Below are positions 1-13,464 of a stretch of 64,000 nucleotides of DNA, in pieces (positions within the stretch are counted from its first letter, which is position 1; each line of letters begins with the position of its first letter). A program made the position numbers and the translations under genes. The DNA is taken from positions 2,474 to 66,473 of the forward strand of contig CAZKMB010000005.1 of assembly GCA_964553965.1 (NCBI GenBank), written 5' to 3'. The DNA comes from an uncultured Bacteroides sp. GTDB lineage: Bacteria; Bacillota; Clostridia; Lachnospirales; Lachnospiraceae. A model generated the notes under the pieces. It saw nothing but the letters and a program-made list of their open reading frames with translations, ran no database searches and was not told the DNA's origin.

Positions 1-531
1 CTGCTTTGGACTGATTGCTTTTTGTATAAATGTATGCCAAAGGATAGGATAAAGCATGTTGCACAGGCAAAATACGTGGGGACTGATAATTTTTTTGTAG
101 ATTGGACATATGGGGCGGCACATCTGTGTAGATATAAAGATGTTGTTAAAATAGGTGGTTATCCGGCAGGATATTTTATGTATGGTGAAGATACGGAGTT
201 TTGTATGATGTTTCTTGATAAATTAGGAAAGAAGAATTATTATATGGGACAATGTGAGTTGATTCATCTTGGGGGATATAGTGAAAAACAAGTCTTAAAT
301 AGCAAAAAAGTAGAATATGGTACAAATGCTGCGATGTATTTTGTAAATAAGTATTATGGAAGATGGGCGTTATTTAGATATAGGATTTTACTATTAATGA
401 TATCTATAGTTAGGTATATTTATTTTTGGATTAAATGCAATTTTAATAGTAGTCAAAATAACATAAACAAAAAGATGAGATGGAAAACATCGGTGAAGGC
501 AACATTGAGCTATGATGGCAGGATAAACTGA
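1..531 (+). CDS. Glycosyltransferase family 2, C-terminal part (5'-truncated by the window edge)
   Basis: Frame is open from base 1; GT2 C-terminal motif 'GGYPAGYFMYGEDTEFC'; lies in a glycan cluster. Confidence 0.75.
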   Translation: MLWTDCFLYKCMPKDRIKHVAQAKYVGTDNFFVDWTYGAAHLCRYKDVVKIGGYPAGYFMYGEDTEFCMMFLDKLGKKNYYMGQCELIHLGGYSEKQVLNSKKVEYGTNAAMYFVNKYYGRWALFRYRILLLMISIVRYIYFWIKCNFNSSQNNINKKMRWKTSVKATLSYDGRIN

Positions 532-625
532 AATAGTTTGTTTGATATAGAATTGAGTTATATGACAAAAATATATTTTTTGCCACAGTTTAGAATATAA
601 AATTTAGAAGAGTGATGGTGACAAA

Positions 626-1684
626 ATGAGCGTTGCAATAAGTATTATTATGCCTGTATACAATGCAAAAGAGTATGTATCACATGCTATAAAGAGTGTA
701 TTAGATCAGACATTTGATGATTTTGAATTGATTATTATAGACGATGGCTCAACAGATGGTAGTTCAGGAATATGTGATGAGTTTTGTCAATCAGATAAAA
801 GAGTTAGAGTAATACATCAAGAAAATGCTGGTATATGTGCCGCTCGAAATAAAGGTTTAAAGATGGCACGCGGTGAATATATTGGGTTTATTGATAATGA
901 TGATCAATGGGACAAGCATACATTGGAAGATAATTATAAATTACTAATTAAAAATAATGCTGATTGGGTAAAGTATGGTAAAAATGAAATTTTAATTAAA
1001 GACAACAAGGTCTTAAAATGTACAGCTGCTGAATTTTCAGATGATATTTATTATGATAATGAGATTATAAATAATCTTTTGAATATGAGATGTAAAGATA
1101 TGATGACTTTTGTTTGGGATTCTTTATTTAAAAGGCAGAATATTGTAGAAAATGATATTACATTTGACGAAAAATTTGTATCTGGAAATGAAGATATTGA
1201 TTTTTGTGAAGAGTATGCCATGGTAAGCAAATGTTTAGTTATAAATTCAAAGTGCTATTATGATCATAATACAAGATTAGGAGAGAGTGCGTCTTCCAAG
1301 ACATCGATGAAGAAGATTTATTCATATTTATATTTATTGTCTAAATCTAATAGAAGATATAAGAATATTTTTTATAATAGGGTGTTTCCTGAAAAAGAAT
1401 ATTTATATATTATAACAAAGCAGATAATTGTAAATATTTGTCAGAAGGTAAATGATTTTGGTAAATTGAAAACACATAAAGAAAAAAAGAATATTATAAA
1501 GAGTATTGCTCGTGATAACGAATTCGAAAATTACATGAAAATGTCCGCGATAAATAAGAGTTGTGGTTCATTAAAACTGAATATATATATGAAATTGTTT
1601 TGTTGTGAGTGGTTCGGTTTGTTATTAGTTGTTGATAATTTTTCAAGAAAATTAATGTATTCTTTAAGGAAATTGAAAAGATAG
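626..1684 (+). CDS. Glycosyltransferase family 2 (GT-A)
   Basis: 'ISIIMPVYNAKEYV...SVLDQTFDDFELIIIDDGSTDGS', 'RNKGLKMARGEYIGFIDNDD'. Confidence 0.92.
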   Translation: MSVAISIIMPVYNAKEYVSHAIKSVLDQTFDDFELIIIDDGSTDGSSGICDEFCQSDKRVRVIHQENAGICAARNKGLKMARGEYIGFIDNDDQWDKHTLEDNYKLLIKNNADWVKYGKNEILIKDNKVLKCTAAEFSDDIYYDNEIINNLLNMRCKDMMTFVWDSLFKRQNIVENDITFDEKFVSGNEDIDFCEEYAMVSKCLVINSKCYYDHNTRLGESASSKTSMKKIYSYLYLLSKSNRRYKNIFYNRVFPEKEYLYIITKQIIVNICQKVNDFGKLKTHKEKKNIIKSIARDNEFENYMKMSAINKSCGSLKLNIYMKLFCCEWFGLLLVVDNFSRKLMYSLRKLKR

Positions 1685-1699
1685 GAGATCAGTTAGTTA

Positions 1700-2527
1700 A
1701 TGTCTTATTGTAAAAAAAAATTTGCTGTTGGAATTATATTATATAATCCAAATCAAAATGATATCAATTACCTAAATAAGTTATATGCATATTTTGATCA
1801 TATATATGTGTATGATAATTCAAAAAATAATAATAATCATTTAATAAATAAAACATATATATACAATTATGAAGGAAAAAATAGAGGATTAGCTAAGGGG
1901 TTTAATTGGTTTATAGATAAGAGTATTGAAAATGATACAGATTATCTATTGCTTCTTGATCAGGATTCTTGTTTTGATTTAAAAAAGTTGCAACAATTTA
2001 TGAATGAAATAGAAAAAGAGCAAACGAGTCATAACATTCTAATTAGGGCATGTAATACATATCCATTTGGAAAAGAGGAAAATAACGTAATAAATGATAT
2101 TCAAGTAATGAGTAAGGCCATATCTTCCGGTAGTTTTCTTAATATTCAATTACTAAAAAATGATGATATTAGATATGATGAGAATATGTTTATAGATTTT
2201 GTGGATGATGATTTTTGTATAAAAGCCATAAAGAAAGGGTATCAAATAGTGTGTTATAAAAGATATAGTTTTCCGCAACAATTAGGTTATATTTATAAGG
2301 GAAGAGTGTGTCATAATGCAATTAGACATTATTATATGATAAGAGATTTGGGTTATTTATATGAAAAATATAATAGCAGGTTTAAGTGTTTAATTATGTT
2401 AACGCGTTTTCTGTTACATGATTTAATAATTTGTTTTTTTGAAGATGAAAAAAAGAGAAAATTTTTAATGGCCATAAAAGGATATTTTCATTATTTAAAA
2501 AAAGTAACAGGTGAATATACGTCATAA
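1700..2527 (+). CDS. Glycosyltransferase family 2, rhamnosyltransferase-like
   Basis: 'IILYNP', 'NRGLAKGFN', 'LLLDQDS', 'ISSGSFL', 'DENMFIDFVDDDFC', 'RHYYMIRD'; adjacent to rmlC. Confidence 0.8.
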   Translation: MSYCKKKFAVGIILYNPNQNDINYLNKLYAYFDHIYVYDNSKNNNNHLINKTYIYNYEGKNRGLAKGFNWFIDKSIENDTDYLLLLDQDSCFDLKKLQQFMNEIEKEQTSHNILIRACNTYPFGKEENNVINDIQVMSKAISSGSFLNIQLLKNDDIRYDENMFIDFVDDDFCIKAIKKGYQIVCYKRYSFPQQLGYIYKGRVCHNAIRHYYMIRDLGYLYEKYNSRFKCLIMLTRFLLHDLIICFFEDEKKRKFLMAIKGYFHYLKKVTGEYTS

Positions 2528-2546
2528 TCAATATGAGGAGGTAAGC

Positions 2547-3149
2547 ATGGGACAGATAAAAGTAACTAAATGTTCTATAGATGGATTGTATATAATTGAA
2601 CCGGCAGTACATGGAGACAGCCGAGGTTATTTTATGGAGACATATAACAAAAAAGATATGGTGGAATCAGGTCTTAACCTGAACTTTGTTCAGGACAATC
2701 AGAGTATGTCGGTGAAAGGTGTCTTGAGAGGTCTACACTTCCAGAAAGAATATCCACAGGGAAAATTAGTGCGTGTCATAAAAGGTAGGGTGTTCGATGT
2801 GGCGGTAGACCTTAGGGCAGATAGCAAAACGTATGGTAAGTGGTTTGGCGTTGAACTGACAGAAGAAAATAAAAAACAGTTCTATATCTCTGAGGGATTT
2901 GCACACGGTTTTCTTGTTCTAAGTGACACAGCAGAGTTTTGCTACAAGGTTACTGACTTTTATCACCCATGTGATGAAGGTGGACTTGCATGGAACGATC
3001 CCGAGATTGGAATAGAATGGCCGGAGCTATTTGGCGAATACAGCGGAAATGCAAATGCGAAGGGTTATATGTTGAGCGATGGAACGCCGCTTAATCTTAG
3101 TGATAAAGATCAAAATTGGCTCGGTATAAAGGATACATTTAGATTTTGA
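2547..3149 (+). CDS. rmlC: dTDP-4-dehydrorhamnose 3,5-epimerase
   Basis: 'GDSRGYFMETY', 'QDNQSMSVKGVLRGLHFQ', 'GFAHGF'; GAGGAG RBS before ATG 2547. Confidence 0.95.
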   Translation: MGQIKVTKCSIDGLYIIEPAVHGDSRGYFMETYNKKDMVESGLNLNFVQDNQSMSVKGVLRGLHFQKEYPQGKLVRVIKGRVFDVAVDLRADSKTYGKWFGVELTEENKKQFYISEGFAHGFLVLSDTAEFCYKVTDFYHPCDEGGLAWNDPEIGIEWPELFGEYSGNANAKGYMLSDGTPLNLSDKDQNWLGIKDTFRF

Positions 3150-3315
3150 GTAATTGGCGGAGATACAAAACAGGAGAGGTTTTATATTTTTTGATGTTGC
3201 AATTAAGTCGATGCTGTATAGAATTTATTAATTAATGATAAATACATTAATTGCAAAAAATGCAGAATAAAAATTTGAAAGGTAATGTGGTTCAAACATT
3301 TAAATAATATAAGAT

Positions 3316-4227
3316 ATGGAAAAGTTAGTGAGTGTAATAATATTAACATATAATAATTTACAGTATTTACATGGTGCAATAGCTTCTGTTACATCTCAGA
3401 ATTATAGGAATATTGAAATCGTTATTTCAGATGATTGTTCGGTTGGTGTGAGTAGAGAAAACATAATTGAGACAATAGCAGAATATCAGAAAGAAAATAA
3501 TATTATAGTGAATGTTAACAAACAGAATTTAGGAACTGTAAAAAATTTCAATAATGCAATAAAAATTAGCAGTGGAGAGATTATCATACCATTATCGTGT
3601 GACGATAAGTTTGTTGATACTAATGTAGTTAGCGAAATCGTTATGCATTTTGAAAATACGGGTTGTTACGTTTGTACTTCTTTGAGAAAAGGCGAAAAAA
3701 CAAACATGATTATGCCTGAGAAAAGAGATGTTGATATATTAATACGAAAAGATTTTTCTTTGTTGTTAGATAGATTATCTGTCAGTAATTTTATAAGTGG
3801 TTCTACATTGTATTATAGTCGTGAAATATTTGATAAATGCGGTTTGTTTGATGAAAAGTATTTATTGTTGGAAGATTATCCGTATGTATTTAAACTTGTT
3901 AAATCTAAAGTTGAAATAAGTTTCTTAAATAGAGTCACAATAATATATGGACAAGATGGAGTGTCAAATTCGAATGGCAACAAAAAACCAAATTCAAAGC
4001 TTATGAATGATATTAACATGTTCTATTGTGATGAGATAAGTAAGTCTGTATATTTAATAAAAAATACAAAATGTCGCAGATATGTAAAATATGAGATAGA
4101 TAAGAGAAGAGCTGTTCATGGTAAAGTGTTTATTTATGTCAAATACTTGGATGTAACAATAGAAAAATTACTAAATAAGATAAGTAAAAGAAAAGAGTGT
4201 ATTTTTTGGAGATTATACAAACAATAG
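3316..4227 (+). CDS. Glycosyltransferase family 2
   Basis: 'LVSVIILTYNN', 'IEIVISDDCS', 'NLGTVKNFN', 'GLFDEKYLLLEDY'. Confidence 0.9.
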   Translation: MEKLVSVIILTYNNLQYLHGAIASVTSQNYRNIEIVISDDCSVGVSRENIIETIAEYQKENNIIVNVNKQNLGTVKNFNNAIKISSGEIIIPLSCDDKFVDTNVVSEIVMHFENTGCYVCTSLRKGEKTNMIMPEKRDVDILIRKDFSLLLDRLSVSNFISGSTLYYSREIFDKCGLFDEKYLLLEDYPYVFKLVKSKVEISFLNRVTIIYGQDGVSNSNGNKKPNSKLMNDINMFYCDEISKSVYLIKNTKCRRYVKYEIDKRRAVHGKVFIYVKYLDVTIEKLLNKISKRKECIFWRLYKQ

Positions 4228-4242
4228 GAAAGAGGGCTAAGT

Positions 4243-4656
4243 ATGCAGGTAATAAAATATGTTTTCCAACCTCATGGTGATGACAGAGGACAATTAGTGG
4301 CTTTAGAGGAATTTAAAGATATACCATTTGAAATTAAGAGAGTATATTACATATATGATACACTCTCTGATGTAAGACGTGGTTTTCATGCACATAAAAA
4401 TTTAGAGCAGATTTTGATATGTATTCACGGATCTTGTAAAATCTTATTGGACAATGGACACGAAAAAAAGATAGTACCTTTGGAAAAACCATATGAGGGT
4501 TTATATGTTGCGAACAATATGTGGAGGGAGATGTTTGATTTTTCTCCGGATGCTGTTTTGCTTGTTCTTGCATCAGAATTATATGATGAGTCTGACTATA
4601 TTAGAGATTATGAAGAGTTTATTATGGAGGTTTCCAAAGATGGAGAACATATCTAA
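4243..4656 (+). CDS. fdtA: FdtA/QdtA-like cupin, dTDP-4-keto-6-deoxyhexose 3,4-ketoisomerase
   Basis: 'DDRGQL', 'FEIKRVYYIY', 'RGFHAHKNLEQILICIHGS', 'YDESDYIRDY'. Confidence 0.85.
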   Translation: MQVIKYVFQPHGDDRGQLVALEEFKDIPFEIKRVYYIYDTLSDVRRGFHAHKNLEQILICIHGSCKILLDNGHEKKIVPLEKPYEGLYVANNMWREMFDFSPDAVLLVLASELYDESDYIRDYEEFIMEVSKDGEHI

Positions 4657-5740
4657 AATTTCTGCAGAAAGAAATTCGAGTATTGAATTGTTGAGAATAC
4701 TTGCGATTATGGGTGTCATTGTTTTGCATTATAATAATCAAGCCATGGGTGGTGGATTGATGTATGTTGAACAAAAAAGTTTGAACCATTTTGCATTACT
4801 TGCATTAGAGGCGATGTTTATATGTGCTGTTAATGTTTTTGTTTTGATTACGGGATACTTTATGGTGACTTCTCAAAAAAGAAACATAGTTAAGCCTTTT
4901 GGACTTTTACTACAGGTAGTGGTGTTTAGGATATTAACCCTAATGGCGAACTATGTAATGAATAATCAGTTATCCGTAAAAGGGTTGATAGGTTGTTTGC
5001 TTCCTGTCAATTATTTTGTTATTCTTTATTGTACATTGTATTTTGTTTCTCCGTATTTAAATATTATATTGAAAAAACTCAGTAGTGCTCAATTAAAATG
5101 TATGATGATATGTCTCATACTGTTGTTTTCTGTATGGCCAACTCTTGTCGATGTTTTACAGTTTACAACAAAAAACGAATATATGGGGTTAAGTACAATT
5201 GGAATGTATGGCAGTCAATATGGTTATACTATTATTCACTTTGTACTGATGTATCTTATAGGCGGAAGTATTAGAATTTGTGAAACAGATGGGAAAAAGA
5301 TAAGAGGACGCATATATAAGCTTATTGTAATATGGTTGTGTGTGGTTGCATTTATTGTCTTATGGTCGTTATATGATGCAAATTCGTCTTGGGAGTATTG
5401 TAATCCGTTAGTTATTATAGAAAGTGTAGTTGTATTTTTACTGTTTAAAAATCTAAATTTTAAAAGTAGAATTGTAAATTCATTGTCGAAAGCTACTTTT
5501 ACGGTTTTTTTAGTACATACAAACTTTTTCAGGTGGTTGTATATTGACAAGTATGTTAATATGAGTTTGATAACAATGTTGTTGCATATTATGATTTCAT
5601 GTATTTCTATATTTGTTATTTGTTATTTTATATGGTTGATATATGATTTGGTTACCAGACCTTTATTCAAATTATTGAATAAAATATTTAAACCATATTG
5701 TATTGATGTGGAGGATAATTATGAAAATACCTTTTGTTAG
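4640..5740 (+). CDS. Acyltransferase family 3 (multi-pass membrane O-acyltransferase)
   Basis: '[21 protein letters not shown]', '[11 protein letters not shown]', many hydrophobic segments; GGAGG RBS before ATG 4640. Confidence 0.85.
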
Positions 5741-6827
5741 TTTTAAACCCATGGAGAAAGAGCTGGATGCTGATTTAAGAGGAGCCTTTAACAGAGTATA
5801 TGAGAATAGCTGGTACATTGAGGGAAAAGAAGATACTGCTTTTGAAGATGCTTTTGCAAAGTTTTGTAATGTGAATTATTGCGTGGGAACAGGTAATGGT
5901 CTTGATGCGTTGGTGCTTCCGTTAAAGGCATTAGGTATAGGAGAAGGGGACGAAGTTATTGTACCTTCAAATACATACATAGCAACAGCTCTTGCTGTTA
6001 CTTATGTAGGGGCTACACCTGTATTTGTTGAACCAATTATTGATACATTTAATATTAATCCCGATAAGATAGAGGAAAAGATTACAGATAAGACTAAGGC
6101 TATTATGCCCGTTCATCTTTACGGACAGCCATGTGATATGGACCCTATTATGGAGATTGCTAAAAGACATAACCTTTATGTTATAGAGGATTGTGCTCAG
6201 GCTCACGGAGCAACCTATAAGGGACGGGTTGTTGGTAGTTTTGGCGATGCAGCAGGCTTCAGCTTTTATCCGGGTAAAAATCTTGGCGCTCTTGGTGATG
6301 CAGGAGCAACAGTAACAAATAACGAAGAAGTCGCAAAGAAGGTCCGTGCGTTGGGTAACTATGGCTCTGATTATAAGTATCATCATATTTATAAAGGTAT
6401 CAATACAAGATTGGACGAGCTTCAGGCTGCTTTTTTATCTGCAAAGCTTCCTCATCTGGACAAGATGAACGAGGAACGCAGACGTATTGCGAATAGATAT
6501 TTAAATGAAATTAAAAATTCAAATGTTGTCTTACCATTTGTGCGTGATAATGTAGTACCTGTATGGCATATCTTTGGTATTCGTTGTAATGACAGAGATA
6601 AGTTAGAAAAGTACCTTAATGATAATGGAATTGGAACTAATAAGCACTACCCTATTCCTATGCATATGCAGGAATGCTATAGAGATTTGAATATAGCGGA
6701 GGGTGAACTCCCTATAGCAGAGGAGATTAGCTCCACTGAGTTAAGTTTGCCTATGTACTATGGTATGACTGATGAAGAAATTGGGTATGTGGTTGAGAAA
6801 ATTAATTCATTTCAAAATGACAGATGA
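5721..6827 (+). CDS. DegT/DnrJ/EryC1/StrS sugar aminotransferase (FdtB-like)
   Basis: 'GNGLDAL', 'PVHLYGQP', 'EDCAQAHGA', PLP-lysine motif '[16 protein letters not shown]', '[10 protein letters not shown]'. Confidence 0.93.
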
Positions 6828-6847
6828 ATAACGAGAGGAACTATTAA

Positions 6848-8263
6848 ATGAATAAATTAAAGTTATTTGTTGTGAATATGTTTGTATATGGTTTGGGCGG
6901 GGTTATTAGCAAGATAATCCCGCTTATAATGGTTCCTATTGTTACCCGTTTGATGCCCAATACATCATATTTTGGAATTAGTGATATGTGTGATGTAATT
7001 ATCTCATTTGCATCGGCGATTGCCGTTATGGGTATGTATGATGCAATGTACAGGATGTTTTTTGAAAAAGAAGATGATGAATATAAAAAGACAATATGCT
7101 CAACTACGTTATTTTTTGTAGGTATAACATCAGTCGTTGTTTTTTTGCTACTGTTATGTTTCAGGCAAGCAATTGCAAGCTTTTTTCTTGAAGATAAAGA
7201 ATTAGCAAATATTATATATATAGTTGCCATAGCAACACTGGTTGGAGGAACTAATTCTATTGTTTCTGCGCCAACAAGGATGCAAAATAAGAAAAAAATC
7301 TTTTTGATTGCTAATATGGTCAGCCCAATTATTTCATATCTTGTGTCTGTTCCCATGCTTTTAAAAGGACATTATATTATTGCATTGCCTTTAGCATCAC
7401 TTATTTCAAGTTGTACAATGGAAATTACTTTCCTTATTTTAAATAAAGGGTGGTTTGGGAAAAAATATATAGATTTAAAACTTTTAAAACCATTATTATT
7501 AATTGGCCTTCCATTGTTGCCAAATTTTTTGATTTATTGGCTGTTTAATTCCTGTGACAAGATTATGATAACAAGAATGATTGGTATTGGAGCATCGGGA
7601 ATATATTCTGTGGGAGCAAAATTAGGACATGCAAGTCAAATTATTTATACTGCTTTTGCAGGTGGATGGCAGTTTTTTGCTTTTTCTACTATGAAAGAAA
7701 AAGAACAGGTAAAAAATAATTCAATGGTTTTTGAATATTTAGGTACTATATCTTTTGCTGTGAGTATGTTTGTATTTGCTTTAGCATATCCTATATACGA
7801 CATCATGTTTACAGATGAATATCTTAGTGGTTATATAGTAGCACCGTATTTATTTTTGGCACCGTTGGTGCAGATGCTTTTTCAGATTGCTGCAAACCAA
7901 TTCCTGGTTGTGAAAAAGACATGGCCAAATGCTTTGATATTAAGTAGTGGCGCTATTATAAATATTGTATTGAATTATTTTCTGATACCGATTATAGGTA
8001 TAGAGGGAGCTGCTGTTGCAACACTGTTGGGTTATGTAATATCTGACATTATATGCGTAATTGTTCTTTGTAAAATGAAACTTATGATTGTATCAAGAAG
8101 ATTTTTGATTATCACACTGATAATGATGATTTATATTGTTGTTTGGAGATTTATTACATTGGAGTATGTATTCTTGAATGTTATATTGGCAGTGCTGTGT
8201 TCGGTTGTATTTGTTATGTTTTATAAGAAGGATATTGACAAGGTCTTAAAATTTGCCAGATAG
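6848..8263 (+). CDS. wzx: Wzx-type oligosaccharide flippase
   Basis: 471 aa with about 12 hydrophobic segments; 'GIYSVGAKL', 'LIPIIGIEGAAVATLLGY'. Confidence 0.85.
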   Translation: MNKLKLFVVNMFVYGLGGVISKIIPLIMVPIVTRLMPNTSYFGISDMCDVIISFASAIAVMGMYDAMYRMFFEKEDDEYKKTICSTTLFFVGITSVVVFLLLLCFRQAIASFFLEDKELANIIYIVAIATLVGGTNSIVSAPTRMQNKKKIFLIANMVSPIISYLVSVPMLLKGHYIIALPLASLISSCTMEITFLILNKGWFGKKYIDLKLLKPLLLIGLPLLPNFLIYWLFNSCDKIMITRMIGIGASGIYSVGAKLGHASQIIYTAFAGGWQFFAFSTMKEKEQVKNNSMVFEYLGTISFAVSMFVFALAYPIYDIMFTDEYLSGYIVAPYLFLAPLVQMLFQIAANQFLVVKKTWPNALILSSGAIINIVLNYFLIPIIGIEGAAVATLLGYVISDIICVIVLCKMKLMIVSRRFLIITLIMMIYIVVWRFITLEYVFLNVILAVLCSVVFVMFYKKDIDKVLKFAR

Positions 8264-8277
8264 GAGAGTAGCGAATC

Positions 8278-8778
8278 ATGATTATAAGAAATTTAAAAAA
8301 ATCTGATGCCCTTCTCATGCTTGAATGGATGCATGATGAGTCGGTGGTTGAATATTTAGCGGCAGATTTTGCAAGCAAAACAATAGATGACTGCATCAGA
8401 TTTATTGATAACAGTTTGTCTGATAAAGAAAATTTTCATCTTGCAATTGCTGATTCAGATGATGTTTATATGGGCACTGTGAGCTTAAAACATATTGACA
8501 GGATTGCTAAAACAGCTGAATTTGCTATTACTATGCGTAAATCTGCCATGGGAACAGGTGCCGCTGCATTTGGTATGGCAGAGATAATTAAGTATGGTTT
8601 TGAACATATAGGTTTAAACGCCATATATTGGTGTGTATCTGAGCAAAATCAGCGTGCTATAAGGTTTTATAACAAAAGATATAAAACTACTGATTATGTT
8701 CCGGAGAGTATTTTGACTAATTATTCTAAGGAACAGGTAGAGAATCTTTTGTGGTATGAGGTTAGTTCGGAAGAATAA
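8278..8778 (+). CDS. GNAT family N-acetyltransferase (last gene of the glycan cluster)
   Basis: 'GTVSLKHIDRIAKTAEFAI', 'MGTG', 'NQRAIRFY' (RimJ/RimL-type GNAT). Confidence 0.8.
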   Translation: MIIRNLKKSDALLMLEWMHDESVVEYLAADFASKTIDDCIRFIDNSLSDKENFHLAIADSDDVYMGTVSLKHIDRIAKTAEFAITMRKSAMGTGAAAFGMAEIIKYGFEHIGLNAIYWCVSEQNQRAIRFYNKRYKTTDYVPESILTNYSKEQVENLLWYEVSSEE

Positions 8779-8820: not shown

Positions 8821-8861
8821 TTGACTTATTACGCAAAAGTGTTTATACTTTTGCGTATAAT
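8821..8861 (+). promoter_or_regulatory. Sigma-A promoter overlapped by a perfect 11-bp inverted repeat (putative operator) upstream of the Lamassu-like operon
   Basis: TTGACT(8821)-N17-TATACT(8844); TACGCAAAAGT(8830-8840)-6 nt-ACTTTTGCGTA(8847-8857). Confidence 0.65.
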
Positions 8862-9006
8862 ATTTCTACTGTTCATATTTTATTAGGAGAATTACTTTTT
8901 CAAAATACCGGCTTTAATAAAATGGTTAGTAAAAATATGTTGATATTTAAGTGAATTTGTATTTGGCACATAGTACTATTACTTTAGTAAAATGTGAGGG
9001 AAAGTT

Positions 9007-9981
9007 ATGGATAAATTTGATTATGTTAAGTTAATTGTAAACACCCTGCGTGGCTCTACGGGGAATAATTTTCAACAGCAAATAGGCGTTGTCTTAAAAG
9101 AGTACTATAAAAATAAACATGTTACATATGAGATGCCGTCTTACCTTGGTGGGGATAAAAAAAATGATGGCTGGGTTGTTGAAGATGCACTATTTTATCA
9201 AATATATGCACCGTCAAGAAATTATGATTCCATGAAAAGAGATATGCAAAAAAAGTTTTCAGAGGACTTAAATGGTTTGCTAAAAAATATATATAATAAG
9301 GGATTATGGAACGGGAAATTAAACAAATTTATCTACATTGTCAATACAATAGATGGTGAATTGCCGGAAGATAGCGAGAGATACTATGATAAAGAAGTAG
9401 AGAGATTGAAATTAGAGTATTCAGTTGATTTTGAATACGAAGTCGTTAATTTGGATTATATTTTTGATGTTCTGTGTGAAATATACGATAAAACCATTCT
9501 TGAAAAGATATCAGCTAAACTTAGTGTTAATAATATGTTAGACTATAATGCTGTGGATGAAACAAATATGATTCAATTAATTTATAGAATATCTTCTAAC
9601 ATTAGTGAGAAATTTATAAAAGAAGAATGTGATGACAATAATCGCTATGAAAGAGTATCGTCGGTTGAAAAAATATCTATAAATGATTTAGATGATAAGA
9701 AAGATGTTATAGAGAAAATCATAAGTAATCTTGATGTTGTTGAGAATGCAATAAGAAATATTAATCAGGATGTTTTGTTTGAACATAAATTTGAACGAGT
9801 AAAAAATCATGTCATAGATAAATATGATAAATTGAAGGAAGAATTTCATGGTGTAGAACTGTATAATAATTTGCTTAATGATTTGGTTTCATATGCAGGT
9901 AGTGCTGATATAGATAAAACAGGAACAGAGTTTTTAGTTGTTTATATTTTTGACAAGTGTGATATTTTTGAGAAAGAATAG
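9007..9981 (+). CDS. lmuA: ABC-three-component/Lamassu effector (LmuA-like): restriction-endonuclease-like N-terminus plus ABC-3C C-terminal domain
   Basis: N-term 'GNNFQ...GGDKKNDG...FYQIYAP'; C-terminal signature 'FLVVYIFDKCDIFEK'; first of three coupled genes. Confidence 0.75.
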   Translation: MDKFDYVKLIVNTLRGSTGNNFQQQIGVVLKEYYKNKHVTYEMPSYLGGDKKNDGWVVEDALFYQIYAPSRNYDSMKRDMQKKFSEDLNGLLKNIYNKGLWNGKLNKFIYIVNTIDGELPEDSERYYDKEVERLKLEYSVDFEYEVVNLDYIFDVLCEIYDKTILEKISAKLSVNNMLDYNAVDETNMIQLIYRISSNISEKFIKEECDDNNRYERVSSVEKISINDLDDKKDVIEKIISNLDVVENAIRNINQDVLFEHKFERVKNHVIDKYDKLKEEFHGVELYNNLLNDLVSYAGSADIDKTGTEFLVVYIFDKCDIFEKE

Positions 9982-9989
9982 GTGATAAA

Positions 9990-10256
9990 ATGATATTACC
10001 GGATAAGTATGTTACATTATCTGAAAGTTTTATAGGGCTAAGTGGGATGCTGCTTGATACATTAGGAAAGACCAATATGACTGTAGATAAACTCTGGAAT
10101 AAGTTTAATGATAAATATGTATCAACCAAAAAAATTAGTAATATACCTACGTATCAGAAATATATATATGTGTTACAGTTTATGTACATAGCAGATATGA
10201 TTAATTATAACGGCAAGGGGGAAGTGTTTAATGAAAATATTAAAACTTGTAATTAA
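9990..10256 (+). CDS. lmuC: ABC-three-component middle component (LmuC-like small subunit)
   Basis: 88 aa starting 'MILPDKYVTLSESFIGLSGMLL', 'LQFMYIADMI'; between effector and SMC-like ATPase. Confidence 0.7.
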   Translation: MILPDKYVTLSESFIGLSGMLLDTLGKTNMTVDKLWNKFNDKYVSTKKISNIPTYQKYIYVLQFMYIADMINYNGKGEVFNENIKTCN

Positions 10257-11898
10257 AAACCCTCATAAAGAGATAATTAGAGATATTGATTTTTCTGAGA
10301 CTGGTATTTCTTTTATTTATGGAGATATTCAAGAGCCAACAAATAAAAAAGCAACAATCAATAGTTTGGGTAAAACATTATTACTTAAATATATTGATTA
10401 TATATATGGTGCAAATGAAGATAAAAAAGTCGTAGGTGAGGTTCTTGCTGGATATATCCTTGATGCAGTAGTATTATTTGAAAATAAAAAGTATGATGTA
10501 AGAAGAATTCTTGGTGAGTCTCAGAAGATATTAATTGAAGGTAAAGTATATAATTTAACCGAGTATAAGCATTTTTTTAAGATAAAGAGAAGTTTATATA
10601 GTAAACAACTCATAGTAAATAAAAAAAGTACTGAAATAAGTTATAATACGCGCCCGGATAAGCTTGATGTAACAACATGTTTAAGATTGCTGAATTTATT
10701 AAAATTAGTGGATGATATTGAGAGTATATATGATTCTCAGGATAGGATAAAGGCACTTAAAGAACAAAAAAAGGAGGTAGTGTCTTTTTATGGTAACTGG
10801 GATGTAAATAAGATAGATGAAGAGATTTTTTATGTAGACAAAGAAGTAGAGCGACTAAGAGAAGAATTAGAAAAAATCAGCGTAAAGATAAAGAAAATAG
10901 AAGTATCTGATTTACAACAAAATGTTATAGAAGAGTATGCTGATAAAGGCAAAAAGTTAAAAGAGTTAAAACGAGAATACGAGAAAAGAAGAACTGAATG
11001 TGAACGCTTAGAAGAATTTATTCAAAATTCAAAAAAGAATGATTTGACAAGCGAACACTTGTTGCTTATTTATGAAAAGGCAAAACAAGAAGTTCCGGAA
11101 ATGGTAAAAAAGGAGTTGAAGGAGGTAGAAGCATTTCATAATAAGGTTTATAAAGAACGAGAAGCTTTTCTTGGAGAAAAAAGAAATCAATTATTAGAGG
11201 AAATGGATGGGATAGACATTGAACTTAAAGAATTAGCTGAAAGGGTTGATACAATAGGACGTATAATTTCAACAAATGAAGTTTATCAAGAATCGATAGA
11301 ACTTTATAGTAAGTATAATTCGGATTTGCAGGAATTGGTTTACAAGCAAGGCAAGTTATCTCAAATTAAAAATGTTGATAATGCTATAGACGAAGAAAAA
11401 AATAGCTTGGCTGATAGTTTTAACAATGCATCTCAAATAAGAAAAACTTATGAAGAATTGGTGCTGAAATATAGAAATTTTGTTTTTTCTTTAATTAAGT
11501 CTATATATGATAAAGAGGTCAACTCCTTTTTTGATATTAAGGTACGACAATTTCATTCAACAACAAGACCGGTGAGTTTTGAATTTTCAATCAAAGGTGA
11601 TACAGGAGAAGGTGTGAGTGAAGTAAAGAAGAACCTTATGGATTATCTGATATGTAGATACAATACAGCTGTTAATGTCATGTTACAGGATTCAGCATGT
11701 TATAATGGTATTGACCCTAGACAGGTTGCAGGAATGCTTATAGAATTAGGTAAAATTGCAGAGGAAACTAACAAACAAGTGATAGTAGCAGTGAACAAAT
11801 ATCAGGTTACAGGGTATGATGAAGTTATAAAATACATTATTGATAATCATGCTGTTATTCTGTCTGAAAATGACAAATTGATGAAATTTGATTTTTAG
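10231..11898 (+). CDS. lmuB: SMC/Rad50-like ABC ATPase (DUF2326-like, LmuB-like)
   Basis: Walker A-like 'INSLGKTLL', long central coiled coil, signature-like 'GDTGEG', Walker B-like 'VMLQDSACYNGIDPRQ'. Confidence 0.78.
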   Translation: MKILKLVIKNPHKEIIRDIDFSETGISFIYGDIQEPTNKKATINSLGKTLLLKYIDYIYGANEDKKVVGEVLAGYILDAVVLFENKKYDVRRILGESQKILIEGKVYNLTEYKHFFKIKRSLYSKQLIVNKKSTEISYNTRPDKLDVTTCLRLLNLLKLVDDIESIYDSQDRIKALKEQKKEVVSFYGNWDVNKIDEEIFYVDKEVERLREELEKISVKIKKIEVSDLQQNVIEEYADKGKKLKELKREYEKRRTECERLEEFIQNSKKNDLTSEHLLLIYEKAKQEVPEMVKKELKEVEAFHNKVYKEREAFLGEKRNQLLEEMDGIDIELKELAERVDTIGRIISTNEVYQESIELYSKYNSDLQELVYKQGKLSQIKNVDNAIDEEKNSLADSFNNASQIRKTYEELVLKYRNFVFSLIKSIYDKEVNSFFDIKVRQFHSTTRPVSFEFSIKGDTGEGVSEVKKNLMDYLICRYNTAVNVMLQDSACYNGIDPRQVAGMLIELGKIAEETNKQVIVAVNKYQVTGYDEVIKYIIDNHAVILSENDKLMKFDF

Positions 11899-12173: not shown

Positions 12174-12686
12174 TTGTTACATATAATAGGGAAGTCCATA
12201 TTTAACAAGAACCTTTCACGTTGCAGTAAGCAATATAGACGGAACACAGCTGCTTCCTGCGTATTAGCAGTGGCTTTTGTTGCTGCGATTGTAGTGTATA
12301 ACTCTGACTGGGCAAAAGAAAAGAATGAGGGGTCGCTTTGGTCGAGTTCATCCGTTTTTGAATTAAATAGGGGAAACCCGGAATCGTTTTGTTATTTTGC
12401 GGTTGGTGAGGGCGATTTTATAGAACTGGAAGTTGATATTAAAGAGCTTAACGGTTCAATTTTGGTTTTTGTATACACTTTCGATAAAAGCGAAGAAAGT
12501 GTTCATGATATTAATGACATTGAGCTAAAAGATCAGATTATCTGTGACGAGATAGAAAAGACAGGACTATATAAGTACTCTTTAGATTCAGAAAAAGTAT
12601 CAAACTATTGTATAAATATTGAATTATCCGATGACAGCCGGGATGCGGTTGTACAGGATATAGTGTATACATGGTGTAACAATTAG
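12174..12686 (+). CDS. Hypothetical protein with one hydrophobic segment; start uncertain, possibly a remnant
   Basis: 170-codon ORF with TTG start; hydrophobic stretch 'CVLAVAFVAAIVVY'. Confidence 0.4.
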   Translation: MLHIIGKSIFNKNLSRCSKQYRRNTAASCVLAVAFVAAIVVYNSDWAKEKNEGSLWSSSSVFELNRGNPESFCYFAVGEGDFIELEVDIKELNGSILVFVYTFDKSEESVHDINDIELKDQIICDEIEKTGLYKYSLDSEKVSNYCINIELSDDSRDAVVQDIVYTWCNN

Positions 12687-12760: not shown

Positions 12761-13024
12761 ATGATTATGGGCGTTTTAAAGAGACATAAAAAGATATCGT
12801 TATGGACAATTTTTGGTTTCATAATAGTCTTTATATTGTTTGATTATATAATTCAGGCAACTGTTAAAGATAACGTTTGGAAGCTTATAAACAATAGAGG
12901 ATTAAGCATAGACGGTATTGTTTCCATGGAGACTCTTTGTTCTTCGTATGAGAAAGAAGCTATGGATAATGCCGGTGAAAACTACCTCTTTCCTTTGATT
13001 TTACTGATATCAGCATGGAGATAG
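12761..13024 (+). pseudogene. Membrane-protein fragment, probably a truncated transporter-associated gene
   Basis: 87 codons, one TM segment, overlaps the broken ABC ATPase. Confidence 0.35.
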
Positions 13025-13464
13025 AAAACGGTGAGTTTGTTGCCGTTATGGGAAAATCAGGTTCGGGCAAGACCACTTTGCTCAATGTGTTAGGCTGTAT
13101 TGATAAGCTTACGGAAGGAGAATACTATTTGGATGACGTTGATATCAGCAGTCTGGGAATGTTCAGGCTTGATAAGGTGCGAAAAGAAAAGATAAGTTTT
13201 ATATTTCAAAATTATGAGCTGATGGATAATTATACGGTGTACGAGAATATAGAATTACTGCTTTTGGCACATAAGGTAAGCAGCAGGGAAAGACGAAAAA
13301 AAGTAAATGCCATTATGGAGCAGTTGGGTATCCGGGAGTTGGGGAAAAAATATCCGGGACAGATTTCGGGTGGTGAGCAACAAAGAACCGCCATTGCAAG
13401 AGTGCTTGTTGCGGACAGGATAATTGAGATTGCGGACGGCAGGATAACAGATTCGCAAAATTGA
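13015..13464 (+). pseudogene. LolD/MacB-type ABC ATPase with internal deletion
   Basis: Walker A 'GKSGSGKTT', Q-loop 'FIFQNYEL', signature 'ISGGEQQR' present, then a direct jump to terminal 'ADRIIEIADG'; Walker B, D-loop and H-loop absent; N-terminus also short. Confidence 0.8.

What the first reader, a model, noticed from the sequence alone, without database searches (positions are those of the whole stretch)
9007..11898. Short Lamassu-type (ABC-three-component) anti-phage module at the end of the glycan cluster, with an atypical nuclease-like effector
Seen: effector, small middle component and a 555-aa SMC-like ATPase with Walker A/B-like motifs and no CXXC zinc hook; AT-rich; overlapping reading frames. 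Established: this architecture defines Lamassu defence systems. Unusual: the effector N-terminus reads 'GD-K-NDG...FYQIYAP', a restriction-endonuclease-like layout with QxY where PD-(D/E)xK nucleases usually carry (E/Q)xK, so it may be a variant effector. Its position between a phage-receptor-type glycan locus and decayed genes suggests an accessory hotspot.
Basis: partly seen in the sequence, partly recalled or inferred. Interest (0 to 1): 0.66.

Follow-up and report, generated by a model that had tools for sequence, protein, structure and literature searches.

The report
Short Lamassu defence operon, lysine-less Mrr head
This is an intact, horizontally acquired three-gene bacterial immune operon of the known Lamassu (ABC-three-component) family, of a catalogued but never tested subtype, whose predicted DNA-cutting head is a distant relative of the Mrr restriction nuclease that has lost the usual catalytic lysine.

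Summary
Three + strand ORFs (324, 88 and 555 aa) lie at 9007-11898 at 28% G+C, against about 40% in the rest of the window.

- The middle gene passes Pfam's cut-off for ABC-3C Middle Component 6.
- The ATPase is a DUF2326/YydD-type coiled-coil ABC ATPase. Its fold is closest to B. subtilis YydD, then Rad50, SMC and solved LmuB chains. Its 555 aa, hhhhD-S Walker B and lack of CxxC fit published short Lamassu.
- The effector tail is ABC-3C CTD10.
- The effector head matches no library profile. It folds like a restriction endonuclease and is a remote Mrr_cat homologue (hhalign P 3e-5; controls P at least 0.16).
- Its conserved residues are G49-D50, D54, K83 and D87.
- The same head is fused to NACHT NTPases in defence islands.

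The three genes stay together in 30 of 30 informative genomes, move as a 2.97-kb unit, are under purifying selection and are absent from 40 related genomes.

Verdict: a new member of a known kind with a variant nuclease head. Defence activity is untested. Interest is moderate to low.

The parts
8830..8857 (+). Terminator-like hairpin that closes the upstream glycan operon. It separates that operon from the cassette.
   Evidence: 12-bp stem followed by a T-rich tail, 52 nt after the GNAT gene stop at 8778.
8929..11898 (+). The horizontally transferable unit: 78 nt of leader followed by the three genes. It ends exactly at the ATPase stop codon.
   Evidence: 85% nucleotide identity to L027 and L028, from a different organism context with an integrase and DUF2971 upstream. 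The identity spans exactly window 8929-11898.
9007..9540 (+). Effector head (aa 1-178): a restriction-endonuclease-fold, Mrr-like domain that lacks the strand-3 lysine. Candidate catalytic residues are D50 (9154-9156), D54 (9166-9168), K83 (9253-9255) and D87 (9265-9267).
   Evidence: - AF2 model: pLDDT 88.7, order alpha-alpha-beta-beta-beta-alpha-beta-alpha-beta.
- Foldseek: EcoT38I E 3.7e-3, prob 1.0; also SfsA, XPF, Hef, Mus81 and phage 'restriction endonuclease' models.
- hhalign to Mrr_cat: P 3.2e-5 against controls of at least 0.16.
- Conservation across 57 sequences.
- No hit in Pfam, NCBIfam, PADLOC or PHROGs.
9541..9981 (+). Effector linker and C-terminal domain (aa 179-324): ABC-3C CTD10, the predicted docking and oligomerisation domain. 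Its K-I-x-x-N motif and C-D-I-F tail are invariant.
   Evidence: - PADLOC PDC-M68A: E 1e-7 over aa 187-323.
- 16 of 47 family members hit Pfam CTD10.
- Remote members score 58-71 bits against a 28.1-bit cut-off.
- hhalign to those members: prob 95.8%, E 7e-9.
9990..10256 (+). Middle component (88 aa), in the position of LmuC.
   Evidence: Pfam PF20293 MC6 scores 33.7 bits against a 27.2-bit cut-off, and MC7 matches more weakly. It lies directly between the effector and ATPase genes in 30 of 30 loci.
10231..11898 (+). Short LmuB-like (YydD/DUF2326) coiled-coil ABC ATPase, 555 aa. Features:
- P-loop aa 42-49 (10354-10377).
- Coiled coil aa 157-425 (10699-11505).
- Signature-like loop G-D-T-G-E-G, aa 456-461.
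- Walker B V-M-L-Q-D-S, aa 483-488 (11677-11694).
- No zinc hook.
   Evidence: - Pfam DUF2326: 85 bits.
- PADLOC PDC-M68B E 1.3e-29, and LmuB E 6.7e-7 over aa 1-115.
- AF2 model pLDDT 83.4.
- Foldseek: YydD E 1.5e-23, Rad50 1e-10, LmuB 9ux7_A 9e-10, 9hqu_A 3e-9.
- Motif conservation.

Best explanation
Window 8929-11898 is a self-contained short, type II Lamassu (ABC-three-component) conflict system of the CTD10 / MC6 / DUF2326 (YydD-like) subtype.

Shown here:
- Composition, homology and fold of all three parts.
- Strict gene linkage, purifying selection, horizontal mobility and patchy distribution.
- Re-use of the effector head in NACHT proteins of defence islands.

Inferred by analogy with solved Lamassu complexes:
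1. A dimer of the 555-aa SMC/Rad50-like ATPase, together with the 88-aa middle component, holds one effector molecule inactive by its CTD10 tail.
2. The complex senses aberrant DNA, such as free ends, hairpins or replication intermediates of a phage or plasmid.
3. Nucleotide-dependent head engagement releases the effector. The Walker B reads D-S, so hydrolysis is probably slow.
4. Released effectors oligomerise through CTD10. This brings the Mrr-like heads together to cut DNA non-specifically, aborting the infection or removing the plasmid.

The head probably keeps a two-aspartate metal site (D50, D54). I infer that its catalytic lysine is supplied from the following helix (K83, with D87) and not from strand 3.
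For: Parts:
- MC6 passes Pfam's cut-off and DUF2326 scores 85 bits.
- PADLOC gives PDC-M68B 1.3e-29, an LmuB N-terminal match at 6.7e-7, and PDC-M68A on the effector tail.
- The tail is CTD10.
- The ATPase model matches YydD at E 1.5e-23 and TM 0.62, then Rad50, SMC heads and LmuB chains 9ux7_A, 9hqu_A and 9hqx_B.
- The effector model also matches YydB of the YydD-YydB model (prob 0.89) and LmuA 9nxx.

Fit to published short Lamassu (10.1101/2025.04.02.646746):
- LmuB of about 600 aa, Walker B hhhhD[Q/S/T/E], and zero to two CxxC.
- Mrr is among the listed effectors.

Head:
- Restriction-endonuclease fold.
- Mrr_cat profile-profile match with controls.
- D54 and K83 are 100% conserved, G49 and D50 98%, D87 96%.

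The head as a portable effector:
- It forms the N-terminus of NACHT proteins P0272/P0346 and P0262.
- Those genes sit beside type I R-M, SIR2, McrB-like, reverse-transcriptase and AAA_15/21 genes.

Linkage and mobility:
- Effector, middle component and ATPase lie in order in 30 of 30 informative loci, with unrelated flanks.
- Flanks include the edge of a Tn916-like ICE in Listeria innocua, an hsdS shufflon, and integrase or resolvase genes.
- The cassette is absent from 24 congeneric and 16 same-order genomes.
- dN/dS is 0.08-0.12.

Mechanism source: 10.1101/2025.03.14.643221 and 10.1101/2025.06.23.660979.
Against: - No member of this subtype has been tested. PADLOC lists the nearest match only as an untested 'phage defence candidate'.
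- No PADLOC LmuA profile and no Pfam nuclease profile hits the effector.
- The LmuB profile match covers only aa 1-115.
- Fold matches for the head are weak (best E 3.7e-3).
- The hhalign register around strand 3 is of low confidence.
- The canonical (D/E/Q)xK lysine is absent.
- The ATPase lacks both the Walker B glutamate and an H-loop histidine (N522), so it may not hydrolyse ATP at all.
- In this genome the cassette sits next to glycan genes and gene remnants, not next to other recognisable defence genes.
- No homologue was found in phage records.
Confidence: 0.72

Rival explanations
1. Same Lamassu-type sensor complex, but the lysine-less head is not a DNA endonuclease. It could be catalytically inactive and act as a DNA-binding or scaffold module. 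It could also act on another substrate, such as RNA or a nucleotide.
For: - The canonical strand-3 lysine is missing. Q65 and Y67 vary across the family.
- No nuclease profile in Pfam, NCBIfam or PADLOC hits the head.
- Fold matches are weak.
Against: - Two aspartates align with the Mrr catalytic aspartates.
- An invariant Lys-x3-Asp is kept across 57 sequences down to about 21% identity. That is the pattern of an active site, not of a decayed one.
- dN/dS for the effector is 0.12.
- The head occupies the effector position in NACHT proteins as well.
Confidence: 0.15
2. The cassette mainly serves mobile elements. It would act as an anti-plasmid, anti-competitor or stabilisation (addiction) module of ICEs and islands, with little role in phage defence.
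For: - It sits at the edge of a Tn916-like ICE in Listeria innocua.
- It lies beside integrase or resolvase genes in other loci.
- Remote homologues occur on Phaeobacter and Yoonia plasmids.
- The related DdmABC system eliminates plasmids (papers read).
Against: - This would use the same molecular mechanism and is not exclusive of phage defence.
- In this genome and in Paenibacillus the cassette is chromosomal, with no mobility genes nearby.
Confidence: 0.07
3. An SbcCD/Rad50-Mre11-like DNA-repair module (ATPase plus nuclease) with a housekeeping role.
For: The ATPase model matches Rad50 and SMC heads. Lamassu is proposed to descend from SbcCD.
Against: - It is absent from 40 related genomes.
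- Its G+C is 12 points below the genome's.
- It transfers as a 3-kb unit.
- It carries ABC-3C-specific MC6 and CTD10 parts and no Mre11/SbcD phosphoesterase.
Confidence: 0.03

Closest known systems
Short type II Lamassu (LmuA-LmuC-LmuB; Vibrio cholerae DdmABC, Salmonella enterica LmuACB)
   Same: - Gene order is effector, small middle protein, then a roughly 600-aa SMC/Rad50-like ATPase.
- The effector has an N-terminal enzymatic head and a C-terminal docking domain.
- The Walker B is deviant and there is no zinc hook, as in V. cholerae LmuB.
- The ATPase fold matches 9hqu, 9hqx and 9ux7.
   Different: - The ATPase is of the DUF2326/YydD sequence family. Only aa 1-115 match a PADLOC LmuB profile.
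- The middle component is MC6, whereas V. cholerae LmuC is MC3.
- The tail is CTD10, whereas V. cholerae has CTD7 and type I has CTD12.
- The head is a lysine-less Mrr-like domain, not Cap4.
- Walker B reads D-S, not D-Q.
ABC-3C systems of the CTD10 / MC6 / DUF2326 subtype (defined computationally; Pfam PF20275, PF20293, PF10088)
   Same: All three family assignments are met, directly or through relatives. NCBI names remote homologues 'ABC-three component system protein'.
   Different: The window's own effector falls below Pfam's CTD10 threshold, and no profile exists for its head. The defining paper (PMC7544218) is not held, so I could not check whether it names this head.
Bacillus subtilis YydB-YydC-YydD
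   Same: YydD is the best structural match of the ATPase (9a6c_A, E 1.5e-23, TM 0.62). The YydB chain matches the effector (prob 0.89). It has the same three-gene layout and belongs to the same Pfam DUF2326 family.
   Different: By my own knowledge and earlier scan note e1-2679497, not tested here, the YydB head is a metallophosphoesterase and not a restriction-endonuclease fold. ATPase sequence identity is 17%.
Lamassu-Mrr (E. coli SE15; shown to defend by abortive infection, 10.1101/2022.05.11.491447)
   Same: It is a Lamassu whose LmuA head is an Mrr-family endonuclease. Defence needed the ATPase site, the effector site and lmuC.
   Different: The head here is not recognised by Pfam Mrr_cat and lacks the QxK lysine. 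I could not retrieve the SE15 proteins for a direct comparison.
Mrr / type IV restriction endonuclease catalytic domain (Pfam Mrr_cat, PD-(D/E)xK superfamily)
   Same: - The fold order is the same.
- Helix-1 F-Q23 aligns with Mrr F-E.
- G-D50-x-x-x-D54-G aligns with Mrr G-D-x-G-x-D-G.
   Different: - There is no conserved lysine on or near strand 3.
- The beta2-beta3 hairpin is about 5 residues shorter.
- K83-x3-D87 on the next helix is family-specific and has no Mrr counterpart.
PADLOC candidate system PDC-M68
   Same: The B component matches the ATPase at E 1.3e-29. The C-terminal half of the A component matches the effector tail.
   Different: Positions 1-114 of the PDC-M68A profile do not match the head. 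PDC systems are untested predictions made by 'guilt by embedding'.
Bacterial NACHT / antiviral STAND proteins with N-terminal effector domains
   Same: The same head (47-53% identity) forms the N-terminus of NACHT proteins in defence islands.
   Different: The sensor there is a STAND NTPase, with no ABC ATPase, middle component or CTD10.

Membership tests
ABC-three-component (ABC-3C) system | Three co-directional, tightly packed genes in the order effector, middle component, coiled-coil ABC ATPase | tested here: met
   (8-nt gap and 26-nt overlap). The same order holds in 30 of 30 informative loci.
ABC-three-component (ABC-3C) system | Middle component belonging to one of the MC families | tested here: met
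   PF20293 MC6 scores 33.7 bits against a 27.2-bit cut-off.
ABC-three-component (ABC-3C) system | Effector carrying one of the ABC-3C C-terminal domains (CTD) | tested here: met
   The window protein has no direct Pfam hit. However, 16 of 47 relatives hit CTD10, and remote relatives score 58-71 bits. hhalign of the window's subfamily tail against those gives prob 95.8%, E 7e-9.
ABC-three-component (ABC-3C) system | ABC ATPase with a coiled-coil insert between the two head halves | tested here: met
   DUF2326 at 85 bits. The AF2 model has helices spanning aa 157-425 between N- and C-terminal head halves. Fold matches are YydD, Rad50 and SMC.
Short type II Lamassu (LmuACB) | LmuB: an SMC/Rad50-like ATPase of about 600 aa with Walker A, Walker B hhhhD[Q/S/T/E], and 0-2 CxxC | tested here: met
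   555 aa; the P-loop is N-S-L-G-K-T; Walker B is V-M-L-Q-D-S with S488 invariant; there is no CxxC. Criteria come from 10.1101/2025.04.02.646746. The first P-loop Gly is T or S in this family.
Short type II Lamassu (LmuACB) | Sequence-profile match to LmuB | tested here: inconclusive
   One PADLOC LmuB model matches at E 6.7e-7, but over aa 1-115 only. A profile of the family finds no LmuB chain in PDB sequences. Fold search does find LmuB, at E 1e-9 to 4e-8.
Short type II Lamassu (LmuACB) | Sequence-profile match to a known LmuA | tested here: not met
   No PADLOC LmuA profile hits at E up to 1. Foldseek matches to LmuA 9nxx are weak (prob 0.21-0.25). DefenseFinder models were not available.
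Short type II Lamassu (LmuACB) | Protection against phage or plasmid by abortive infection that needs all three genes; a 2:1:1 complex; effector release and tetramerisation | not testable with these tools
Mrr_cat / PD-(D/E)xK nuclease | alpha-beta-beta-beta-alpha-beta restriction-endonuclease core fold | tested here: met
   AF2 secondary-structure order. Foldseek: EcoT38I prob 1.0 with E 3.7e-3, also SfsA, XPF, Hef, Mus81 and the R2 endonuclease. Several phage 'restriction endonuclease' and PD-(D/E)XK models match with prob up to 0.98. E-values are weak.
Mrr_cat / PD-(D/E)xK nuclease | Match to the Pfam Mrr_cat model | tested here: not met
   The window protein has no hit at E up to 1. None of the 47 relatives hits at E up to 0.01.
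Mrr_cat / PD-(D/E)xK nuclease | Profile-profile homology to Mrr_cat domains | tested here: met
   hhalign of 57 heads against 29 Mrr_cat domains: score 35.2, P 3.2e-5, prob 72.6%, 129 columns. The reversed control and 20 column-shuffled controls give scores of at most 13.6 and P of at least 0.16.
Mrr_cat / PD-(D/E)xK nuclease | Catalytic D ... (D/E/Q)-x-K, with the lysine on strand 3 | tested here: not met
   The aspartates are kept (D50 98%, D54 100%). The strand-3 position reads Q65 (74%)-x-Y/F67 (84%), with no conserved lysine nearby. The only invariant lysine is K83, on the next helix.
PADLOC PDC-M68 | Both components A and B matched over most of their profiles | tested here: inconclusive
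   B matches at 1.3e-29 over profile positions 192-548 of 581. A matches at 1e-7 over positions 115-252 of 253 only.

The most novel reading that the evidence does not exclude
The head (G-D-x-K-x-D-G ... [FY]-[YF]-Q-x-[YF]-x-P ... K-x3-D) may be an undescribed, catalytically rearranged branch of the Mrr/restriction-endonuclease fold. In this branch the catalytic lysine, and perhaps an acidic residue, would have moved from strand 3 to the following helix. The domain would serve as a portable 'execution' module shared by short Lamassu and NACHT-type immune sensors. It might also have an altered substrate or cleavage chemistry.
Probability: 0.4. Interest if true: 0.5.

Novelty: new member of a known kind. 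Interest (0 to 1): 0.36.

Why it matters
Lamassu is one of the most widespread bacterial immune families, but only Cap4-type systems have solved mechanisms. This cassette represents a compact branch (CTD10, MC6, DUF2326/YydD) for which I found no published test. It is spread by horizontal transfer through Firmicutes, Fusobacteria, Mollicutes and others, including gut Lachnospiraceae. Testing it would do three things:
- Show whether the release-and-oligomerise model extends to this branch.
- Give a function to B. subtilis YydD-type ATPases.
- Show whether a restriction-fold nuclease can work with its lysine relocated.

The find is not surprising to a specialist, because modular effectors and deviant Walker B motifs are already described for short Lamassu.

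Tried and rejected
- Sequence searches of the effector, and of family profiles, against PDB chains gave only designed proteins and noise. The ATPase profile gave no SMC or LmuB chain.
- PHROGs gave one unnamed family for the ATPase and nothing for the head.
- The paper that defines ABC-3C (PMC7544218, doi 10.1093/nar/gkaa726) is not held. I therefore could not check whether this head already has a name.
- Literature searches for DUF2326, YydD/YydB and EcoT38I gave nothing useful.
The closer A1 worked, so the genome count of 32 loci is a pattern-limited lower bound.
- The promoter scan was not above shuffled expectation: 26 sites against 22.7 +/- 4.8. I claim no promoter.
- No flanking direct repeats or att-like sites were found.
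- Model coordinates cannot be read, so the K83 to D50/D54 distance could not be measured.
- I rejected the idea that the cassette belongs to the glycan operon. A terminator-like hairpin separates them, and a strain with different glycan genes keeps the cassette.
- I considered and rejected an EF-hand-like reading of D-K-K-N-D-G, because position 3 is Lys or Gly.
Full report
**1. Observation**

- The window holds three + strand ORFs at 9007-9981 (324 aa), 9990-10256 (88 aa) and 10231-11898 (555 aa).
- The first two are 8 nt apart. The last two overlap by 26 nt.
- G+C is 0.28-0.31 across 9-12 kb, against about 0.40 for most of the window.
- A GAGG motif lies 8 nt before the first ATG.
- All three start codons agree with homologues.
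- The ATPase has four cysteines and no CxxC.

**2. The three parts**

*Middle gene.* It passes Pfam's curated cut-off for ABC-3C Middle Component 6 (33.7 against 27.2 bits).

*ATPase.*
- Its C-terminal 134 residues match DUF2326 at 85 bits.
- PADLOC gives PDC-M68B at E 1.3e-29. It also gives a weaker LmuB match, E 6.7e-7, confined to aa 1-115.
- An AlphaFold2 model (pLDDT 83.4) shows a split ABC head with roughly 270 residues of antiparallel helices between the halves.
- Foldseek ranks B. subtilis YydD first (9a6c_A, E 1.5e-23, TM 0.62). Next come Rad50, an SMC head, type I LmuB (9ux7_A, 9e-10) and Salmonella LmuB (9hqu, 9hqx; 3e-9 to 4e-8).
- In an alignment that includes 24-27% identical members, the invariant residues are N44, G47 and K48 of the P-loop, D457 and G461, D487-S488 and D495-P-x-Q.
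- The Walker B therefore reads hhhhD-S.
- From the alignment and the model's strand order, an Asn (N522) stands where ABC ATPases usually carry the H-loop His. No structural superposition backs this.
- A 2025 survey describes short Lamassu LmuB as about 600 aa, with Walker B hhhhD[Q/S/T/E] and zero to two CxxC (10.1101/2025.04.02.646746). This protein fits that description.

*Effector.* The window's own effector hits no Pfam, NCBIfam or PHROGs family. Only its C-terminal half (aa 187-323) matches PADLOC PDC-M68A.

**3. The effector family**

- An exhaustive HMMER scan of 1.84 billion cluster representatives found only 106 relatives at E up to 1e-3. Almost all are 300-340 aa long.
- Of 47 aligned members, 16 hit Pfam CTD10. 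More remote members score 58-71 bits against a 28.1-bit cut-off.
- hhalign of the window's subfamily tail against those members gives 95.8% probability and E 7e-9. The shared motifs include K-I-x-x-N and the terminal C-D-I-F-E.
- The tail is therefore ABC-3C CTD10, the domain class that in solved Lamassu docks LmuA to LmuB and LmuC and later tetramerises.

**4. The effector head (aa 1-178)**

*Fold.*
- The AlphaFold2 model is confident (pLDDT 88.7) and has the order alpha-alpha-beta-beta-beta-alpha-beta-alpha-beta.
- Foldseek's best PDB match is the restriction enzyme EcoT38I (E 3.7e-3, prob 1.0, 177 columns).
- SfsA, XPF, Hef, Mus81 and the R2 endonuclease appear lower in the list.
- In the viral library the recurring named matches are 'restriction endonuclease', 'PD-(D/E)XK nuclease' and 'endodeoxyribonuclease I'.
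- These scores are weak but all point the same way.

*Test of the Mrr lead.*
- I collected 29 Mrr_cat domains from genomes of the same order and compared profiles.
- The result was score 35.2, P 3.2e-5 over 129 columns. The reversed control and 20 column-shuffled controls gave scores of at most 13.6 and P of at least 0.16.
- The alignment pairs F22-Q23 with the Mrr helix-1 F-E. It pairs G49-D50 and D54-G55 with the Mrr G-D-x-G-x-D-G.
- Around strand 3 the register is of low confidence.

*Conservation across 57 heads.*
- D54 and K83 are 100% conserved, G49 and D50 98%, and D87 96%.
- Q65 is only 74% conserved. Position 67 is Y or F in 84% of sequences.
- No lysine is conserved on or near strand 3.
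- K83-x3-D87 lies on the helix after strand 3 and has no counterpart in Mrr.

*Inference.* The active site has been rearranged, with the lysine supplied from that helix. Migration of catalytic residues to that helix is known in Cfr10I/NgoMIV-type enzymes; this is from memory, not tested here. I could not measure distances in the model.

**5. The head as a portable effector**

- Three proteins in two groups carry the head (47-53% identical to the window's) in front of a NACHT NTPase: P0272 and its 88%-identical relative P0346 (917 and 924 aa), and P0262 (490 aa).
- P0346 lies between type I R-M genes, a SIR2 gene, an integrase and a McrB-like gene.
- P0272 lies near a reverse transcriptase and an AAA_15/21 ATPase.
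- N-terminal effector domains on STAND sensors are a hallmark of immune proteins.

**6. Linkage, mobility and selection**

- A scan of one genome per species returned 32 loci. All 30 with enough downstream DNA carry effector, middle component and ATPase in that order, with the same overlap.
- Hosts include Lachnospiraceae, Clostridium tetani, Erysipelothrix, Helcococcus, Paenibacillus, Lysinibacillus, Vagococcus, Acholeplasmatales, Spirochaetaceae and Cetobacterium.
- One further copy uses TGA=W.
- Flanks are unrelated to one another:
  - ordinary chromosome in Paenibacillus;
  - the edge of a Tn916-like ICE in Listeria innocua;
  - an hsdS shufflon with an integrase;
  - a resolvase and a SocA_Panacea-domain gene;
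  - an integrase and DUF2971.
- Remote homologues on Phaeobacter and Yoonia plasmids are annotated 'ABC-three component system protein'. None is found in phage records.
- The nearest distinct homologue shares 85% nucleotide identity over exactly 8929-11898. That span defines the transferred unit.
- dN/dS across this pair is 0.12, 0.11 and 0.08 for the three genes.
- The effector is absent from 24 congeneric and 16 same-order genomes.

**7. Local context**

- The cassette follows a glycan cluster: GT2, Acyl_transf_3, DegT-type aminotransferase, flippase and GNAT. A terminator-like hairpin lies at 8830-8857.
- Metagenomic contigs of the same species keep the cassette and everything downstream at 99.9-100% identity. 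One of them diverges upstream of 8672 and carries other sugar genes there.
- In five congeners, homology to the window starts only at glmS, about 13,890.
- So the 14 kb before glmS is a variable region, and the cassette is an independent insert within it.
- Downstream lie small unknown ORFs and a 149-aa ABC_tran remnant. Reading its sequence, the remnant lacks a Walker B.

**8. Mechanism**

By analogy with solved Lamassu, I propose the following steps:
1. An ATPase dimer with MC6 sequesters one effector by its CTD10.
2. The complex senses DNA ends or hairpins of invading replicons.
3. Nucleotide-dependent head engagement releases the effector.
4. CTD10 oligomerises and juxtaposes the heads.
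5. DNA is cleaved and the infection aborts.

Only composition, homology, linkage, selection and mobility are shown here. Every mechanistic step is inferred.

**9. Comparison and novelty**

- The system meets every ABC-3C criterion that could be tested, and the published description of short Lamassu LmuB.
- It fails the profile tests for a known LmuA and for Pfam Mrr_cat, and it lacks the strand-3 lysine.
- PADLOC would at best call it the untested candidate PDC-M68.
- Earlier notes of this scan describe the same head in a Dehalococcoidia and an E. coli cassette. These notes are unchecked leads. My own alignments reproduce the signature independently.
- Modular effectors (Mrr among them), deviant Walker B motifs and the lack of a zinc hook are already published for short Lamassu.
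- I therefore rate this a new member of a known kind. Its one noteworthy feature is the unannotated, lysine-less Mrr-like head.

Noticed in passing
window 13015-13464: A 149-aa ABC_tran ORF keeps its Walker A, Q-loop and signature (ISGGEQQR). It then runs straight into a C-terminal tail with no Walker B, so it looks like an internally deleted remnant of an ABC transporter ATPase. The small ORFs at 12174-12686 and 12761-13024 have no family match.
   Followed up: partly
window 1-8672, against locus L030: Another strain of the same species is 99.9% identical from 8672 onward. Upstream it carries different sugar genes (DegT, a TPP enzyme and an epimerase). The glycan cluster has been swapped, with a breakpoint inside the 3' end of the GNAT gene, while the defence cassette stays.
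   Followed up: partly
window about 13890 (start of glmS), against L022-L026: In five congeneric genomes, homology to the window begins only at glmS. The 15 kb upstream of glmS in those genomes shares none of the window's genes from 1-13.9 kb.
   Followed up: partly
L095:7001-9775 and L013:6001-8754: NACHT NTPases of 917-924 aa carry the same lysine-less Mrr-like head at their N-terminus. They sit in defence islands: type I R-M, SIR2_2, a McrB-like AAA_5 and an integrase in one; RVT_1 and AAA_15/21 in the other.
   Followed up: partly
L003-L005:8001-10886: In Listeria innocua the cassette lies between a TRAM/tRNA-U5-methyltransferase-family gene and the first genes of a Tn916-like ICE (DUF961, FtsK, Rep_trans, ArdA, TcpE). 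It looks like cargo at the element's edge. The index lists this exact effector protein in 112 blocks of the collection.
   Followed up: no
L011:3649-6308: A copy of the cassette reads correctly only with TGA=W, so it lies in a Mollicutes-type genome.
   Followed up: no
window 10354-10377 and 11677-11799 (ATPase aa 42-49 and 483-523): Family-wide, the first P-loop glycine is Thr or Ser ([TS]-x-N-x-x-G-K-[TS]). Walker B is followed by an invariant Ser. An invariant Asn (N522) stands where ABC ATPases usually have the H-loop His. The ATPase may bind ATP but hydrolyse it poorly.
   Followed up: partly
window 9958-9978 (effector aa 318-324): The extreme C-terminus, C-D-I-F-E-K-E, is the most conserved stretch of the whole effector family. 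C318 and F321 are invariant in 47 sequences down to 21% identity. It is probably a docking or oligomerisation motif of CTD10.
   Followed up: no
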